Source: a virus
Taxonomy: Duplodnaviria > Heunggongvirae > Uroviricota > Caudoviricetes
Length of the DNA stretch: 47,941 nucleotides
IMG/VR virus record: IMGVR_UViG_2606217105_000017
Strand: one strand, 5' to 3'
Position 1 is the first letter of the stretch. The number at the start of each line of letters is the position of its first letter. The notes beneath the pieces were generated by a model. The model saw only the letters and a program-made list of their open reading frames with translations. It was not told the DNA's origin and searched no databases. A program made the position numbers and the translations under genes. This document shows positions 1,553 through 42,151 of the stretch, one piece after another.

Positions 1553-1753
1553 TCACGAGGACTGAAGTTTCTCGCAATTGAAATTAATCAGTTTTACTTT
1601 CTGCTCTCTGGAAACTCCTGCTTCTTTTTTACCTGAGAGCATTTTTTCGCATTCTGATTTCGTTAGTTTAGATTTTGAATATCTTGTCCAGTTAGTAGGA
1701 GTGCCACCTTCCTTTTCAATAGTGGCGGTAATTTTATACATGAACATCTCCAT
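1553..1753 (-). CDS. ydaC: YdaC-like small protein (DUF1187-like); alternative start at 1741 has the better SD
   Basis: ORF in Rac-like synteny between xis and ralR; three in-frame ATGs at 1753, 1747, 1741. Confidence 0.5.
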   Translation of the reverse strand: MEMFMYKITATIEKEGGTPTNWTRYSKSKLTKSECEKMLSGKKEAGVSREQKVKLINFNCEKLQSS

Positions 1754-1928
1754 TATTATTTCCAGTGGTTCGTTTATTCCATCTTTCGAGTGCTTCTTTT
1801 TCACTTCCACCATAACCGGTTCGGGATTCGCATGCGTTACACTTCGCTCGGTAATATCCTGAAATGGCTTTCACCGTTACTGATGGACAACCACAAAATG
1901 GACATGGTTTGACTTTTTCATACCGCAT
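1734..1928 (-). CDS. ralR: RalR/Lar restriction-alleviation protein, type I toxin (64 aa)
   Basis: Translation MRYEKVKPCPFCGCPSVTVKAISGYYRAKCNACESRTGYGGSEKEALERWNKRTTGNNNGDVHV, C4 zinc-ribbon, matches recalled Rac RalR; overlaps ydaC 5' end. Confidence 0.75.
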   Translation of the reverse strand: MRYEKVKPCPFCGCPSVTVKAISGYYRAKCNACESRTGYGGSEKEALERWNKRTTGNNNGDVHV

Positions 1929-7103: not shown

Positions 7104-7511
7104 AATTATCTCCATTTTTACAAATGAATTTTGTCGATGCGGTGCCTGGTGCCTCCAGGTGACGTTAACCAGTTAACAATTAACGCCGGATAATCCACCC
7201 ATAACACTGATGCTTTTAACTGCGCCGCGTGCGCTTAGCCGCATTCACCGCATCACAAAATTCACTTTAAAAAGGGGCGGCAGGGCAGCTACGGAGTAGA
7301 ACTGATGCCGCCAAAAACTAGACACAGCAATGTCGTTATTTACAACCGGAGGCGCACTCCCACCATTTAAATTTAACAGACAAGACCGACTCTTTATGGA
7401 TACCGGAAATGCGCCTTCGTATTGTGCCCGGTTTTATTTCACCACCTCCGGGCTTTGGTGGCCTCGGCTATACCCCTACAGCAAGAATATTGAATTAATC
7501 CAATAAATGGT

Positions 7512-13454: not shown

Positions 13455-14027
13455 ATGAGAGACATTGATGTAAGAAAGGCTGTGCATGCCAAGATTCTGA
13501 GAGATCATCATAAAGATCCTGACACCCTAATCATTGATGAGTTTACGATGAATCTAGGGGCTAGCAGAGCTGATATAGCAGTGATCAATGGGCTTATACA
13601 TGGTTATGAGTTGAAGAGCAAGAGTGATAACTTGCTCAGATTACCAGCGCAGGTGCAACATTACTCATCAGTGATGGATAAAGTAACGTTGGTTGTCTCT
13701 GATTGCCATCTTTATGATGCTTTAAGCATAGTTCCATCATGGTGGGGGATAAAGCAAGTTACGCAAGGTGCACGGCAAGGTATCCATTTAAAAACAATTC
13801 GAACTAGCAAGTTGAATCCACAAGTGGACAAACTTTCCTTAACAATGCTTCTTTGGAAAGATGAATTGCTTTCCCTATTAAGTGATGTAGGGGAGCTACA
13901 GAATTTGAAAAATAAACCTAAACGCGTCTTATGGTCAAAACTCGCCAATAGTATGGATGTTGGCGAGCTTCGTGAAGCTGTTCGAGTTAAACTTAAAGCC
14001 CGTAAAGAGTGGCGAGTTGCTCAATAA
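13455..14027 (+). CDS. PD-(D/E)xK-type putative nuclease, sce7726-family-like (190 aa)
   Basis: Motif ..DTLIIDEF..RADIAVINGLIHGYELKSKSD.. gives a D...E-x-K core; AT-rich codon usage unlike flanking phage genes. Confidence 0.55.
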   Translation: MRDIDVRKAVHAKILRDHHKDPDTLIIDEFTMNLGASRADIAVINGLIHGYELKSKSDNLLRLPAQVQHYSSVMDKVTLVVSDCHLYDALSIVPSWWGIKQVTQGARQGIHLKTIRTSKLNPQVDKLSLTMLLWKDELLSLLSDVGELQNLKNKPKRVLWSKLANSMDVGELREAVRVKLKARKEWRVAQ

Positions 14028-15090
14028 CCTTAGTTATGTGATGGTTTTGCCCAATCCTACGCCATACCTCTGGGCTACCAAATTTATAGTTACCAGAGGG
14101 ATTGGCTTTGTAGGCTTGATACTCGTTTGCATAATATTCTATGTCTCTATCTCCCGCACAGAATGTAGGCCCTGAATATTCTCGATGAGCAAGAATATCC
14201 TCACTATGTTTACCATATTGTTCATAACCAAAGCGATTAGCTACTCTTCCTCGAAATACCCAAAAGTCATTATCTCCAGAGTATCTGACGCTGGCAGATA
14301 CGCTAGGGAATCGCGTCGAAAGCCTATTAAAGTCGGGGTGCTGTACTCCATAATCACTATAAATCACATTTCTGGCAAGTTCTTTTCTATTCATTAAACT
14401 CTGCCATAAAATCCACTCGATTCGAGGTTGAGAATATAGACCAACAGAAATATCACTGAGATCTGTAGGAAATGAACCCCCAGAAATAATCACTTTCCTG
14501 TATTCATTGAGGTGCGCCAGATTGTTTATCAATCCCATTGCCAAAGTATATAGTTCGCCGGAATTAAGTTTATCCTCGGTTAACTCATCTCTTAAGTCAA
14601 TAATTATATCAATATTTGATAAAGGAATTCCCAGATGATTAATGTAATGCGTTATTAATTGTGGGTTAACCAGATCTAACGTAGTTAATCTCAAGCATAT
14701 TTCATTCTGCATTAATTCTTCAATCGCTCTTTTATAGTTAGATGGGCGAGTTGGTGAACTGACAGGAATAACTCTTATTCCCATATCTCTAACTTGATTA
14801 ACCGCATTCATTATAGGGTAATGATCTTCAGGAGAAATAAAATGCTCTTCAATTAATAATCCATCAATATAAACACCTTGCATATCTGAGCAAGATTTTG
14901 AGACTTTCTTTCCGAACTCTATAAGAGTCTCGTTATAACTCTTTAAGGCAATACCTGAATCAGGGTCAATTGGCACTGGTTCAATTTCGAGTAATGGCAA
15001 AATTTTTGATTTCTTTTCAATGGATAGCTGCGATAAAGCTGATAACTCAGAACGTTTCGCTTTCAGAATAGGAATATATGAAATTGTCAT
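13993..15090 (-). CDS. Beta-protein / sce7725-family-like protein (365 aa), convergent partner of the 13455-14027 gene
   Basis: Long AT-rich ORF; recalled resemblance to the Beta_protein family (P4 beta type); 3' end overlaps the partner by 35 nt. Confidence 0.5.
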   Translation of the reverse strand: MTISYIPILKAKRSELSALSQLSIEKKSKILPLLEIEPVPIDPDSGIALKSYNETLIEFGKKVSKSCSDMQGVYIDGLLIEEHFISPEDHYPIMNAVNQVRDMGIRVIPVSSPTRPSNYKRAIEELMQNEICLRLTTLDLVNPQLITHYINHLGIPLSNIDIIIDLRDELTEDKLNSGELYTLAMGLINNLAHLNEYRKVIISGGSFPTDLSDISVGLYSQPRIEWILWQSLMNRKELARNVIYSDYGVQHPDFNRLSTRFPSVSASVRYSGDNDFWVFRGRVANRFGYEQYGKHSEDILAHREYSGPTFCAGDRDIEYYANEYQAYKANPSGNYKFGSPEVWRRIGQNHHITKVIEQLATLYGL

Positions 15091-15590
15091 GTTAATACCT
15101 TATACAGAATCAATTAACAATTAATGGTTCTTCGGACATTGAAATTTATATCGCAAAAATTGGCAAACTCTCCTCGACTACTCACTTGTGGGTATCCTGG
15201 CGTAAAAGGAATGACTTGGCAATACCCGGTGTGATCATAAGTCATTGAAAATGATCATTTTTATCAGTCTTTCTTCCATGATGAATGCTAATGCCATTTG
15301 ATTTGTTGAGGTGAAAACTATTAAAAATCAAAACGATGTAATTGAAATGAACGTTCGGTAGCATTCACGCTTTAAATGTTTCTTTTGTGCTGATTGGATG
15401 AATTTTGGTCACTTATGATGAGAGATGTTGCAGGAAAAGAAGTTGGCATTGATCTATTGGATAGTTAGAATTGCTGCGGGTGCTTGAGGCTATCTGCCTC
15501 AGGCATGAACACCAAAAGGCAGATAGAGAAAAGCCCCAGTTAACATTACGCGTCCTGCAAGACGTTTAACATTAATCTGAGGCCATATCT

Positions 15591-15650
15591 ATGCGACACA
15601 TAGAGATTAGCCTCTTACGGACCGAAAGGTCAAGGAGAAGCAGGCTATGA
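15591..15650 (+). other. mok-like leader ORF overlapping the hok start
   Basis: Short ORF whose TGA overlaps the hok ATG (ATGA). Confidence 0.3.
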
Positions 15651-15802
15651 AGCAGCAAAAGGCGATGCTAATCGCCCTGATCGTCATCTGTTTAACCGTC
15701 ATAGTGACGGCACTGGTAACGAGGAAAGACCTCTGCGAGGTACGAATCCGAACCGGCCAGACGGAGGTCGCTGTCTTCACAGCTTACGAACCTGAGGAGT
15801 AA
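15647..15802 (+). CDS. hokD: Hok-family type I toxin, HokD/RelF-like (51 aa)
   Basis: Hand-translated MKQQKAMLIALIVICLTVIVTALVTRKDLCEVRIRTGQTEVAVFTAYEPEE; below the ORF-track cutoff. Confidence 0.85.
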   Translation: MKQQKAMLIALIVICLTVIVTALVTRKDLCEVRIRTGQTEVAVFTAYEPEE

Positions 15803-15869
15803 GAGACCAGGCGAGGGAGAAATCCCTCGCCACCTCTCATGTGTCAGGCATCCTCAACGCACCCGCACT

Positions 15870-15893
15870 AAACCCGCTTCGGCGGGTTTTTTG
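15870..15893 (+). terminator. Rho-independent terminator of the hok transcript
   Basis: Hairpin CCCGC-ttcg-GCGGG followed by TTTTTT. Confidence 0.6.
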
Positions 15894-16077
15894 TTGCGTG
15901 CTGAATGCGCAGGGTGAAAAATAACCATATATTTGATTATATACACAACAAAAAATAAAAGTCATTGTACCTGCACATTAAATAATCAAATATACAGCGT
16001 GAAATAAATATTTTTCAGATTAATATTTTTGTCTCTATGTGGATATAACCGTTTGTACTTATAAACTCGGAGGCATC

Positions 16078-16290
16078 GTGGAAAAAATAAAGAAACTATT
16101 TAGTTGCAAATACGCAGTCATACGTCGTGATGACCTGTCAGTTATAGTCGAAATGGATTACTTCCCTGAACCCCCAAAATCAATGATGTATCGTAATGGT
16201 CGAAAGGCAATTTTTTTACCGATGAGGGTAAGTGACATTATGGGAAATGATAAACTGCTGGATGAATTGCGAGTCAGAGCATCCTGTTAG
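16078..16290 (+). CDS. Hypothetical protein (70 aa from GTG; ORF track starts at 16039)
   Basis: GGAGG 5 nt upstream of GTG 16078. Confidence 0.35.
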   Translation: MEKIKKLFSCKYAVIRRDDLSVIVEMDYFPEPPKSMMYRNGRKAIFLPMRVSDIMGNDKLLDELRVRASC

Positions 16291-18144: not shown

Positions 18145-18220
<76 letters not shown>

Positions 18221-18223
18221 TAT

Positions 18224-18298
<75 letters not shown>

Positions 18299-42123: not shown

Positions 42124-42127
42124 GTAA

Positions 42128-42151
42128 AAAACCCGCGAAAGCGGGTTTTTT
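42128..42151. terminator. Bidirectional rho-independent terminator
   Basis: A6-ACCCGC-gaaa-GCGGGT-T6. Confidence 0.65.

What the first reader, a model, noticed from the sequence alone, without database searches (positions are those of the whole stretch)
15450..15900. Intact hok/mok-type type I toxin locus adjacent to the candidate defence pair
A 51-aa Hok-family toxin ORF (15647-15802) is preceded by a short overlapping mok-like ORF and followed by a clean terminator. The locus is missed by the 60-aa ORF cutoff. The antisense Sok RNA would lie opposite the leader; I could not place its promoter confidently. Hok next to a nuclease module suggests a composite toxin/defence islet.
Basis: partly seen in the sequence, partly recalled or inferred. 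Interest (0 to 1): 0.5.

Follow-up and report, generated by a model that had tools for sequence, protein, structure and literature searches.

The report
Intact prophage hokD/mok/sok toxin–antitoxin cassette
This is a complete copy of the well-known hok/sok "host-killing" toxin–antisense-RNA cassette carried by a lambda-like prophage of Escherichia; it is ordinary, already annotated in thousands of genomes, and not specifically linked to the neighbouring defence-like genes.

Summary
Window 15443-15896 holds a complete hok/mok/sok type I toxin-antitoxin cassette. The 51-aa ORF (15647-15802) matches Pfam HOK_GEF (1.2e-23) and is 100% identical to E. coli K-12 HokD. The leader matches Rfam RF01794 at 108 bits (gathering score 59). 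A sigma-70 promoter puts the transcript start at 15478, and an intrinsic terminator lies at 15870-15892. All 65 pairs of a consensus fold built from 38 family mRNAs are canonical in this copy, including the tac/fbi 5'-3' clamp. That fold is 97% paired overall and has 20 covarying pairs.

The mok leader ORF is a short allele of 19 codons (15591-15650) whose UGA overlaps the hok AUG. Eleven of 80 viral loci carry the same allele. I placed the antisense Sok promoter by homology to the mutationally defined sokW -10 of prophage Sp5: -35 TTGACC and -10 TAATCT on the minus strand. The predicted Sok RNA runs about 15597 to 15525.

The "composite toxin/defence islet" idea is not supported. Only 92 of 4724 E. 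coli genomes carrying this cassette, and 3 of 80 viral loci, have the Beta-protein/sce7726 pair beside it.

Verdict: already known, low interest.

The parts
15443..15471 (+). hok mRNA promoter: -35 TTGGCA (15443-15448), 17-nt spacer, -10 TAGAAT (15466-15471). Predicted start is G15478.
   Evidence: Promoter scan, 10 of 12 matches. The start coincides with position 1 of the Rfam model and with the conserved 5' end of the family alignment.
15478..15895 (+). Full-length mok-hok mRNA, about 418 nt
   Evidence: MFE fold -176 kcal/mol, z=-10.1 against shuffles, with the 5' and 3' ends paired. All 65 consensus pairs are canonical in this copy.
15478..15489 (+). tac (translational activator element), GGGUGCUUGAGG
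   Evidence: Pairs with fbi in the MFE fold. Consensus helix cols 1-6/424-429 is 99.6% paired, with UA<->CG covariation in 12 sequences. It pairs with ucb when the 5' 63 nt are folded alone.
15532..15537 (+). ucb, the mok anti-Shine-Dalgarno sequence, AGCCCC
   Evidence: Pairs with the mok SD region 15578-15583 in the consensus fold (helix 3). Element definition taken from PMC9841398.
15579..15582 (+). mok Shine-Dalgarno GAGG, sequestered in the full-length fold
   Evidence: Read from the sequence; helix 3.
15591..15650 (+). mok leader ORF, short allele: 19 codons plus a UGA that overlaps the hok AUG (AUGA)
   Evidence: Translation. The same allele is in 11 of 80 IMG/VR loci, and an equivalent 19-codon mok is in E. 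ruysiae and E. whittamii hokC.
15610..15614 (+). dcb, GCCUC, which pairs with the mok SD GAGGC in the truncated (open) conformation
   Evidence: Isolated fold of 15570-15625. Corresponds to the third stem of the Rfam RF01794 consensus.
15604..15633 (-). Sok promoter, read on the minus strand: -35 TTGACC (15633->15628), 18-nt spacer, -10 TAATCT (15609->15604)
   Evidence: Positional homologue of the R1-type and sokW promoters. The sokW 'pro-less' primer mutates exactly this -10 box. The TTG of the -35 and positions A2 and T6 of the -10 are invariant in all 38 family sequences. The stringent promoter scan did not call it because the -10 matches only 3 of 6.
15525..15597 (-). Predicted Sok antisense RNA, about 73 nt: single-stranded 5' tail, long hairpin, U-rich tail. 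The ends are inferred.
   Evidence: Fold -28.7 kcal/mol, z=-4.9. The published sokW northern probe covers the homologous stretch 15570-15598. The hairpin shows covariation (cols 77/119, 82/115, 83/114).
15632..15637 (+). hok Shine-Dalgarno AAGGAG, 9 nt before the AUG
   Evidence: Read from the sequence.
15647..15802 (+). hok toxin gene (HokD, 51 aa)
   Evidence: The start-codon region 15645-15655 is sequestered by 15771-15782 in the consensus fold.
15810..15831 (+). 3' stem-loop, predicted protective end of the processed (truncated) hok mRNA
   Evidence: Helix 12: 8 pairs, 4 of them with compensatory changes. Its role is inferred from PMC9841398.
15852..15864 (+). fbi (fold-back inhibition element), CCUCAACGCACCC
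15870..15892 (+). Intrinsic terminator of the hok mRNA
   Evidence: Terminator scan.

Best explanation
This is an intact hok/mok/sok type I toxin-antitoxin cassette of the hokD/hokW (prophage) subgroup. It sits in the nin/Q-proximal region of a Rac/Qin-like lambdoid prophage.

Mechanism, by homology with R1 hok/sok and Sp5 hokW-sokW:
1. A constitutive promoter makes a stable mRNA of about 418 nt. Its 5' tac pairs with the 3' fbi. In this closed form the mok SD is held by ucb and the hok start region by a downstream helix, so nothing is translated and Sok cannot bind.
2. Slow 3' trimming back to the 15810-15831 stem-loop removes fbi.
3. tac then pairs with ucb and the mok SD pairs with dcb. This exposes the mok translation start and the Sok target.
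4. While the labile antisense Sok (about 73 nt) is made from its own promoter inside mok, it pairs with the mok leader and the duplex is destroyed (RNase III).
5. If Sok synthesis stops, ribosomes translate the 19-codon mok, run through the hok SD, terminate at the UGA that overlaps the hok AUG, and start on hok. Sok could stop on loss of the element, on transcription shut-off, or possibly when early-right phage transcription reads convergently across the sok promoter at induction.
6. Hok inserts into the inner membrane and collapses it.

Shown here: every sequence and structure element, its conservation and its covariation. Inferred: transcription of Sok, 3' processing, coupling through the short mok, toxicity, and the biological role (prophage maintenance, help with lysis at induction as for hokW-sokW, or exclusion of other phages).
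For: Pfam HOK_GEF 1.2e-23. 100% identical to K-12 HokD and 42% identical to R1 Hok. Rfam RF01794 at 108 bits against 59. Promoter and terminator found by scan. Full-length fold z=-10 with tac/fbi closure. The consensus fold of 38 family mRNAs is 97.4% paired, against 39-45% when the partners are slid; 20 pairs covary, against 9.6 in shuffles (0 of 500 shuffles reach 20). All 65 pairs are canonical in the window. The alternative tac/ucb and mok-SD/dcb stems form in isolated folds. The Sok hairpin has z=-4.9. The Sok -10 box is homologous to the one whose mutation abolished sokW function, and the sokW probe covers the predicted Sok (PMC8621323). mok translation only needs to reach the hok SD and start codon (PMC9841398). 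The short-mok allele recurs in 11 of 80 viral loci and in other Escherichia species. RefSeq annotates the region as hokD in 98-99% identical E. coli genomes, and phage Rac-SA53 annotates it as mok and hok.
Against: There is no expression data for this copy. The Sok -10 box matches the consensus at only 3 of 6 positions with an 18-nt spacer, and the generic promoter scan missed it. Chromosomal hokA, hokB and hokC loci were reported unable to mediate post-segregational killing (cited in bioRxiv 10.1101/2025.08.07.668861), so an intact sequence does not guarantee activity. The 19-codon mok is a minority arrangement: 3 of 37 in the family sample, against 27 of 37 in frame with hok.
Confidence: 0.9

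Rival explanations
1. It is a silent relic. The cassette looks intact, but Hok is never produced, for example because the 19-codon mok no longer couples translation to hok, or because the locus behaves like the chromosomal hok loci reported as inactive.
For: The short mok is a minority arrangement. Chromosomal hokA/B/C loci did not give post-segregational killing in earlier work (cited). K-12 hokD is a truncated remnant whose homology covers only window 15633-15891.
Against: All 65 consensus pairs and all named elements are preserved. The short allele recurs in 11 of 80 viral loci and independently in hokC of two other Escherichia species. R1 mutagenesis shows that mok need only be translated up to the hok SD and start codon. 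The close homologue hokW-sokW is functional (PMC8621323). Truly decayed copies look different: they lack tac or fbi, or have a frameshifted ORF (L009, L010, L019, L051).
Confidence: 0.08
2. It is a composite toxin/defence islet. Hok would work together with the adjacent sce7726/Beta_protein pair (resembling gop-beta-cll and PD-Lambda-2) as one defence unit.
For: Physical adjacency in the window, in E. coli 214-4 and in phage Rac-SA53. The neighbours match PADLOC models cll (2.4e-28) and PD-Lambda-2_C (4e-42). R1 hok/sok is reported to reduce T4 plating (cited).
Against: The junction is present in only 92 of 4724 hokD-bearing E. coli genomes, in 3 of 80 viral loci and in none of the 46 genome-contig loci tested. 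The cassette's homology starts abruptly at 15466 and it has its own promoter and terminator. The Beta gene is divergently transcribed. hok is not enriched near defence systems in a genome-wide survey.
Confidence: 0.03

Closest known systems
hokW-sokW of Sakai prophage 5 (Stx2 phage Sp5), PMC8621323
   Same: Both are prophage-borne hok/sok cassettes. The leader sequence is nearly identical: the published primers and probes align to window 15478-15530, 15570-15598 and 15604-15637. The Sok -10 box is in the same position. Both toxins are 51 aa.
   Different: HokW ends in ...VFVDYESEK, whereas this Hok ends in ...VFTAYEPEE. The sokW promoter reads TTGCCT-17-TAACCT, against TTGACC-18-TAATCT here. 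In hokW-type leaders mok is in frame with hok; here mok is 19 codons ending at the hok AUG.
E. coli K-12 hokD (relF) in the Qin prophage
   Same: The Hok protein is 100% identical. The 3' UTR, fbi and terminator are the same, and so is the downstream neighbour rem.
   Different: The K-12 copy is truncated upstream by relBE, and homology starts only at window 15633. It therefore lacks the promoter, tac, ucb, Sok target, mok start and Sok -10 box. The window holds the un-rearranged, complete form.
hok/sok (parB) of plasmid R1
   Same: The element order and the alternative RNA folds are the same. Both belong to Pfam family PF01848.
   Different: Only 42% protein identity. The Sok hairpin is about 19 nt longer here. 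Location is a prophage rather than a plasmid. R1 mok is 70 codons overlapping hok.
mok/hok of Escherichia phage Rac-SA53 (KU052037)
   Same: The genomic context is the same: sce7726-like gene, beta, mok/hok, rem, DUF1367, Q. DNA identity is 93-94%.
   Different: In Rac-SA53 mok is annotated as a 70-aa ORF in frame with hok, and the terminator region diverges.

Membership tests
[quoted passage not shown] | Small Hok/Gef-family membrane toxin ORF of about 50 aa | tested here: met
   PF01848 at 82.9 bits, E=1.2e-23. NCBIfam Hok-family models match but score below their curated cut-offs (48.5 bits against 73; 40.2 against 89).
[quoted passage not shown] | hok mRNA leader with the conserved sequence and structure (Rfam RF01794) | tested here: met
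   108.3 bits against a gathering score of 59, full model 1-157.
[quoted passage not shown] | Long-range tac/fbi pairing that closes the full-length mRNA | tested here: met
   GGGUGCUUGAGG (15478-15489) pairs with CCUCAACGCACCC (15852-15864) in the MFE fold. The pairing is conserved with compensatory changes across 38 family members.
[quoted passage not shown] | Alternative pairings ucb/mok-SD (closed form) and tac/ucb plus mok-SD/dcb (open form) | tested here: met
   Consensus helix 3 and isolated folds. These are predictions only, with no structure probing.
[quoted passage not shown] | mok leader ORF with its own SD, translated at least up to the hok SD and start codon | tested here: met
   GAGG, 8 nt, then ATG at 15591. 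The 19 codons end at a TGA overlapping the hok ATG. The requirement is defined in PMC9841398. Coupling itself was not tested.
[quoted passage not shown] | Cis-encoded antisense Sok RNA with its own promoter and terminator, complementary to the mok translation-initiation region | tested here: inconclusive
   The promoter and hairpin/U-tail were placed by homology and folding. The generic promoter scan does not call it. There is no transcript evidence for this copy.
[quoted passage not shown] | Hok toxicity, 3' processing of the hok mRNA, and RNase III cleavage of the Sok/hok duplex | not testable with these tools
   These need experiments. They have been shown for R1 and in part for hokW-sokW.
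HokD (K-12 relF) orthologue | Protein identity and downstream synteny (rem) | tested here: met
   51 of 51 residues identical. rem follows in both.
HokD (K-12 relF) orthologue | relBE immediately upstream, with the leader truncated | tested here: not met
   The window has the complete leader and no relBE. K-12 homology starts at 15633.
gop-beta-cll / PD-Lambda-2 defence systems (neighbouring genes, considered as part of one unit with hok) | Conserved co-occurrence of hok with the Beta/cll-like pair | tested here: not met
   92 of 4724 genomes; 3 of 80 viral loci. Hok has no PADLOC hit.

The most novel reading that the evidence does not exclude
The frame relation between mok and hok is polymorphic in this family. 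Three classes were seen: an in-frame ORF of about 70 aa that is an N-terminally extended Hok, a +1-frame overlapping ORF, or a 19-codon ORF ending in AUGA, as here. The AUGA allele could be a distinct termination-reinitiation tuning of toxin output. Separately, hok is co-oriented with the early-right (Q-proximal) phage genes in 67 of 69 viral loci. Induction-time read-through transcription could therefore silence the convergent sok promoter, which would explain the unexplained RecA-dependent loss of sokW RNA reported for Sp5.
Probability: 0.25. Interest if true: 0.35.

Novelty: already known. Interest (0 to 1): 0.1.

Why it matters
It matters little beyond correct annotation. The cassette falls below ORF-length cut-offs, and neither mok nor Sok is annotated in the matching RefSeq records, so placing every element is useful housekeeping. 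It shows that this prophage carries the complete ancestral form of the truncated K-12 hokD. It also removes a tempting but unsupported 'defence islet' reading. The mok-frame polymorphism and the constant orientation relative to phage early transcription are small leads for people who study type I toxin regulation in prophages.

Tried and rejected
1. The generic sigma-70 scan did not find the Sok promoter. I placed it instead by alignment to R1-type and hokW-type loci and from the published sokW promoter-less primer.
2. I first labelled the conserved helix CUCUUAC (15612-15618) / GUAAGAG (15799-15805) as ucb/dcb. After reading PMC9841398 I corrected this: ucb is the mok anti-SD AGCCCC (15532-15537) and dcb is GCCUC (15610-15614). 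The CUCUUAC/GUAAGAG helix is an additional conserved long-range helix.
3. My recalled R1 sequence put mok in the +1 frame. The R1-type plasmid copy I fetched (L005) has mok in frame. Published R1 data imply an out-of-frame mok. I therefore treat the frame as variable.
4. Fetching 933W 10-24 kb to find hokW gave no hit. I used the primer sequences from the paper instead.
5. PADLOC has no Hok model hit, and no solved structure of a relative exists.
6. Sub-threshold Rfam hits to isrK (31 bits against 50) and rsmX on the hok 3' UTR reflect a generic two-hairpin-plus-terminator architecture, so I dropped them.
7. A local stem-loop around the TadA-type UACG motif is not supported by folding (z=+0.25).
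8. An unrestricted duplexfold of the whole 5' and 3' flanks over-extended the pairings. I replaced it with a tac-only duplex search.

Full report
**Observation.** The region reads as described. The ORF at 15647..15802 (+) encodes MKQQKAMLIALIVICLTVIVTALVTRKDLCEVRIRTGQTEVAVFTAYEPEE. It matches Pfam HOK_GEF at E=1.2e-23 and is identical to E. coli K-12 HokD over 51 of 51 residues. It is 42% identical to Hok of plasmid R1. The upstream 'mok-like' ORF is real but needs exact coordinates: ATG 15591 to TGA 15648-15650, 19 codons, with its stop overlapping the hok start as AUGA. A terminator (8-bp stem 15870-15889 plus a T-run) follows. Rfam RF01794 matches 15478-15649 at 108 bits against a gathering score of 59. 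That model is written in the sense of the hok mRNA leader, so it marks the Sok-complementary region rather than Sok itself. On the minus strand only a 14.7-bit fragment is seen.

**Anatomy.**
- A sigma-70 promoter (TTGGCA, 17 nt, TAGAAT; 15443-15471) places the start at G15478. This is exactly where the Rfam model and the family alignment begin.
- The 419-nt stretch 15478-15896, taken as the predicted transcript, folds at -176 kcal/mol (z=-10.1). Its first 12 nt (tac, GGGUGCUUGAGG) pair with 15852-15864 (fbi, CCUCAACGCACCC).
- To test whether this is more than one sequence's MFE fold, I collected hok-family loci from genome contigs of Escherichia, Kluyvera, Photorhabdus, Pantoea and Citrobacter, from phages and from an R1-type plasmid.
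- In every intact member, a 12-14-nt complement of the 5' end lies 45-56 nt after the hok stop, with compensatory changes: GGGUGC/GCACCC against GGGCGC/GCGCCC, and GAGG/CCUC against GAGA/UCUC.
- An alignment of 38 distinct mRNAs gives an RNAalifold consensus of 65 pairs. On it, 97.4% of cells are paired, against 39-45% when the partners are slid. Twenty pairs show changes on both sides, against 9.6±1.8 in shuffles (0 of 500 shuffles reach 20). The slid controls are the more meaningful ones, because the sequences are related.
- All 65 pairs are canonical in the window's copy.

I use the element names of PMC9841398.
- ucb, the mok anti-SD: AGCCCC, 15532-15537. It holds the mok SD (GAGG, 15579-15582) in the closed form.
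- The 5' 63 nt folded alone form the tac/ucb stem, and 15570-15625 forms the mok-SD/dcb stem (dcb is GCCUC, 15610-15614). This is the open form, and it is also the structure encoded in the Rfam model.
- Further conserved helices sequester the hok AUG (15645-15655 with 15771-15782) and join CUCUUAC (15612-15618) to GUAAGAG (15799-15805, spanning the hok stop).
- The stem-loop at 15810-15831 corresponds to the protective 3' end of the processed mRNA.

**Sok.** Alignment with R1-type and hokW-type loci puts it on the minus strand: -35 TTGACC (15633->15628), an 18-nt spacer, and -10 TAATCT (15609->15604). The TTG of the -35 and positions A2 and T6 of the -10 are invariant in all 38 sequences, although these bases also overlap the hok SD region and so carry more than one constraint.

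Independent experimental support comes from the hokW-sokW study of prophage Sp5 (PMC8621323):
- Its 'promoter-less' primer replaces TAGGTTAG with CCGGCTCG, which is exactly the homologous -10 box, and that mutation released HokW toxicity.
- Its sokW northern probe covers the stretch homologous to 15570-15598.
- Its hokW-specific probe lies over the promoter region, outside Sok.

A start near 15597 gives an RNA of about 73 nt. It has a single-stranded 5' tail, a long hairpin and a CUUUUCUCU tail (-28.7 kcal/mol, z=-4.9). The ends are inferred.

**mok.** Across the 37 of these 38 mRNAs that have an ATG at the mok position, its frame relative to hok varies:
- in frame, an N-terminally extended Hok of about 70 aa: 27 of 37;
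- +1 frame: 7 of 37;
- 19 codons ending in AUGA: 3 of 37 (the window, and hokC of E. ruysiae and E. whittamii).

Among 80 IMG/VR loci encoding the identical Hok, 77 have the full leader and 11 carry precisely the window's short-mok allele. R1 mutagenesis shows that mok must be translated up to the hok SD and start codon but not beyond. The short allele is therefore compatible with coupling, here presumably by termination-reinitiation. That step is inferred.

**Intact versus decayed.** Decayed copies look different.
- K-12 hokD keeps only 15633-15891 behind relBE.
- L009 and L010 lack tac.
- L019, a hokC-type copy in an E. coli chromosome, has lost fbi.
- L051 has a frameshifted ORF and no fbi.

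The window shows none of these defects.

**Context and the 'islet' idea.** The window is a Rac/Qin-like lambdoid prophage. It carries RalA (1557-1735), DicF (7275-7326, minus strand), replication genes, then sce7726-family (13455..14027, +) and Beta_protein (13993..15090, -), then hok, rem (16039..16290), DUF1367, DUF1364, a Q-like gene and two tRNAs. The upstream pair matches PADLOC models cll (2.4e-28) and PD-Lambda-2_C (4e-42), so it is a plausible defence module. I found no nuclease domain in it.

The association with hok is incidental:
- 4724 of 5426 complete E. coli genomes contain this cassette, with a median of 2 copies, but only 92 have the Beta-hok junction. In most genomes homology begins sharply at 15466.
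- Only 3 of 80 viral loci have the pair upstream.
- None of the 46 genome-contig loci tested has it.
- A 2026 preprint reaches the same general conclusion: hok is not enriched near defence systems (12% against 9.4%) but is enriched in prophages (23% against 5%).

**Function.** The regulatory mechanism is that of hok/sok, and the best-explanation section marks which steps are shown and which are inferred. For the biological role in a prophage, the only direct data are for hokW-sokW. There, sokW RNA disappears after mitomycin C in a RecA-dependent way, HokW is made, and phage release doubles. In 67 of 69 viral loci with enough flank, hok is co-oriented with the downstream genes. Early-right read-through would therefore be sense to hok and convergent to sok. 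That is a possible, untested cause of the Sok loss.

**Verdict.** This is a textbook system in a well-populated subgroup. RefSeq already annotates it as hokD, and at least one phage record annotates it as mok and hok. It is correctly spotted and is intact, but it is not part of a composite defence unit. Novelty: already known. Interest: low.

Noticed in passing
window 13455-15090: A convergent gene pair overlapping by 35 bp. The sce7726-family protein (NCBIfam NF033832, 191 bits; PADLOC 'cll' 2.4e-28) is on the plus strand. The Beta_protein (PF14350 1.8e-52; PADLOC PD-Lambda-2_C 4e-42) is on the minus strand. It resembles gop-beta-cll and PD-Lambda-2 defence modules, but no gop or PD-Lambda-2 A/B partner was looked for and no nuclease domain was detected.
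   Followed up: partly
window 1553-1813: A second type I toxin-antitoxin system. RalA antitoxin RNA (RF02694, 218 bits) lies at 1557-1735 (+), opposite an ORF at 1553..1813 (-) that contains the RalR toxin sequence (MYKITATIEKEGG...). This marks the window as a Rac-like prophage.
   Followed up: partly
window 7275-7326 (-): DicF sRNA (RF00039, 54.6 bits against a gathering score of 48), as in the dicB operon of Qin-type prophages.
   Followed up: no
window 18145-18298: Two phage-borne tRNA genes, tRNA-Thr(TGT) and tRNA-Gly(TCC), downstream of the Q-like gene. The same pair is annotated in E. coli 214-4.
   Followed up: no
window 15591-15650 and alignment A2: The reading frame of mok relative to hok is not conserved in the family: in frame (27 of 37), +1 frame (7 of 37), or 19 codons ending in AUGA (3 of 37). 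In the in-frame majority 'Mok' is simply an N-terminally extended Hok.
   Followed up: partly
window 15785-15790: TACGAA (Hok Tyr47-Glu48) is invariant in all 38 family mRNAs. UACG is the TadA A-to-I editing motif reported to recode Tyr to Cys in hokB, and similarly in hokC/D/E (cited in bioRxiv 10.1101/2025.08.07.668861). A local stem-loop was not supported by folding.
   Followed up: partly
window 15466: In most E. coli genomes and phages, homology to the cassette begins sharply at the -10 box of the hok promoter (query position 67; 767). Yet differently flanked copies still have a TTGGCx -35 at the right distance. This suggests the cassette boundary used in recombination lies inside the promoter spacer.
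   Followed up: no
window 15811-15892: The hok 3' UTR gives a sub-threshold, full-length match to Rfam isrK (a Gifsy-1 prophage sRNA): 31 bits against a gathering score of 50, E=1e-5 in a small search. It probably reflects a generic hairpin-plus-terminator architecture.
   Followed up: partly
L001 9248-9412 (E. coli 214-4): The closest E. coli relative carries a 9-nt tandem duplication (CTAATCGCC) inside hok, which gives a 54-aa HokD with three extra residues in the transmembrane segment.
   Followed up: no
window 42126-42148 (-): A 23-nt, 91% identical copy of the hok terminator hairpin sequence lies elsewhere in the prophage. It is probably another bidirectional terminator.
   Followed up: no
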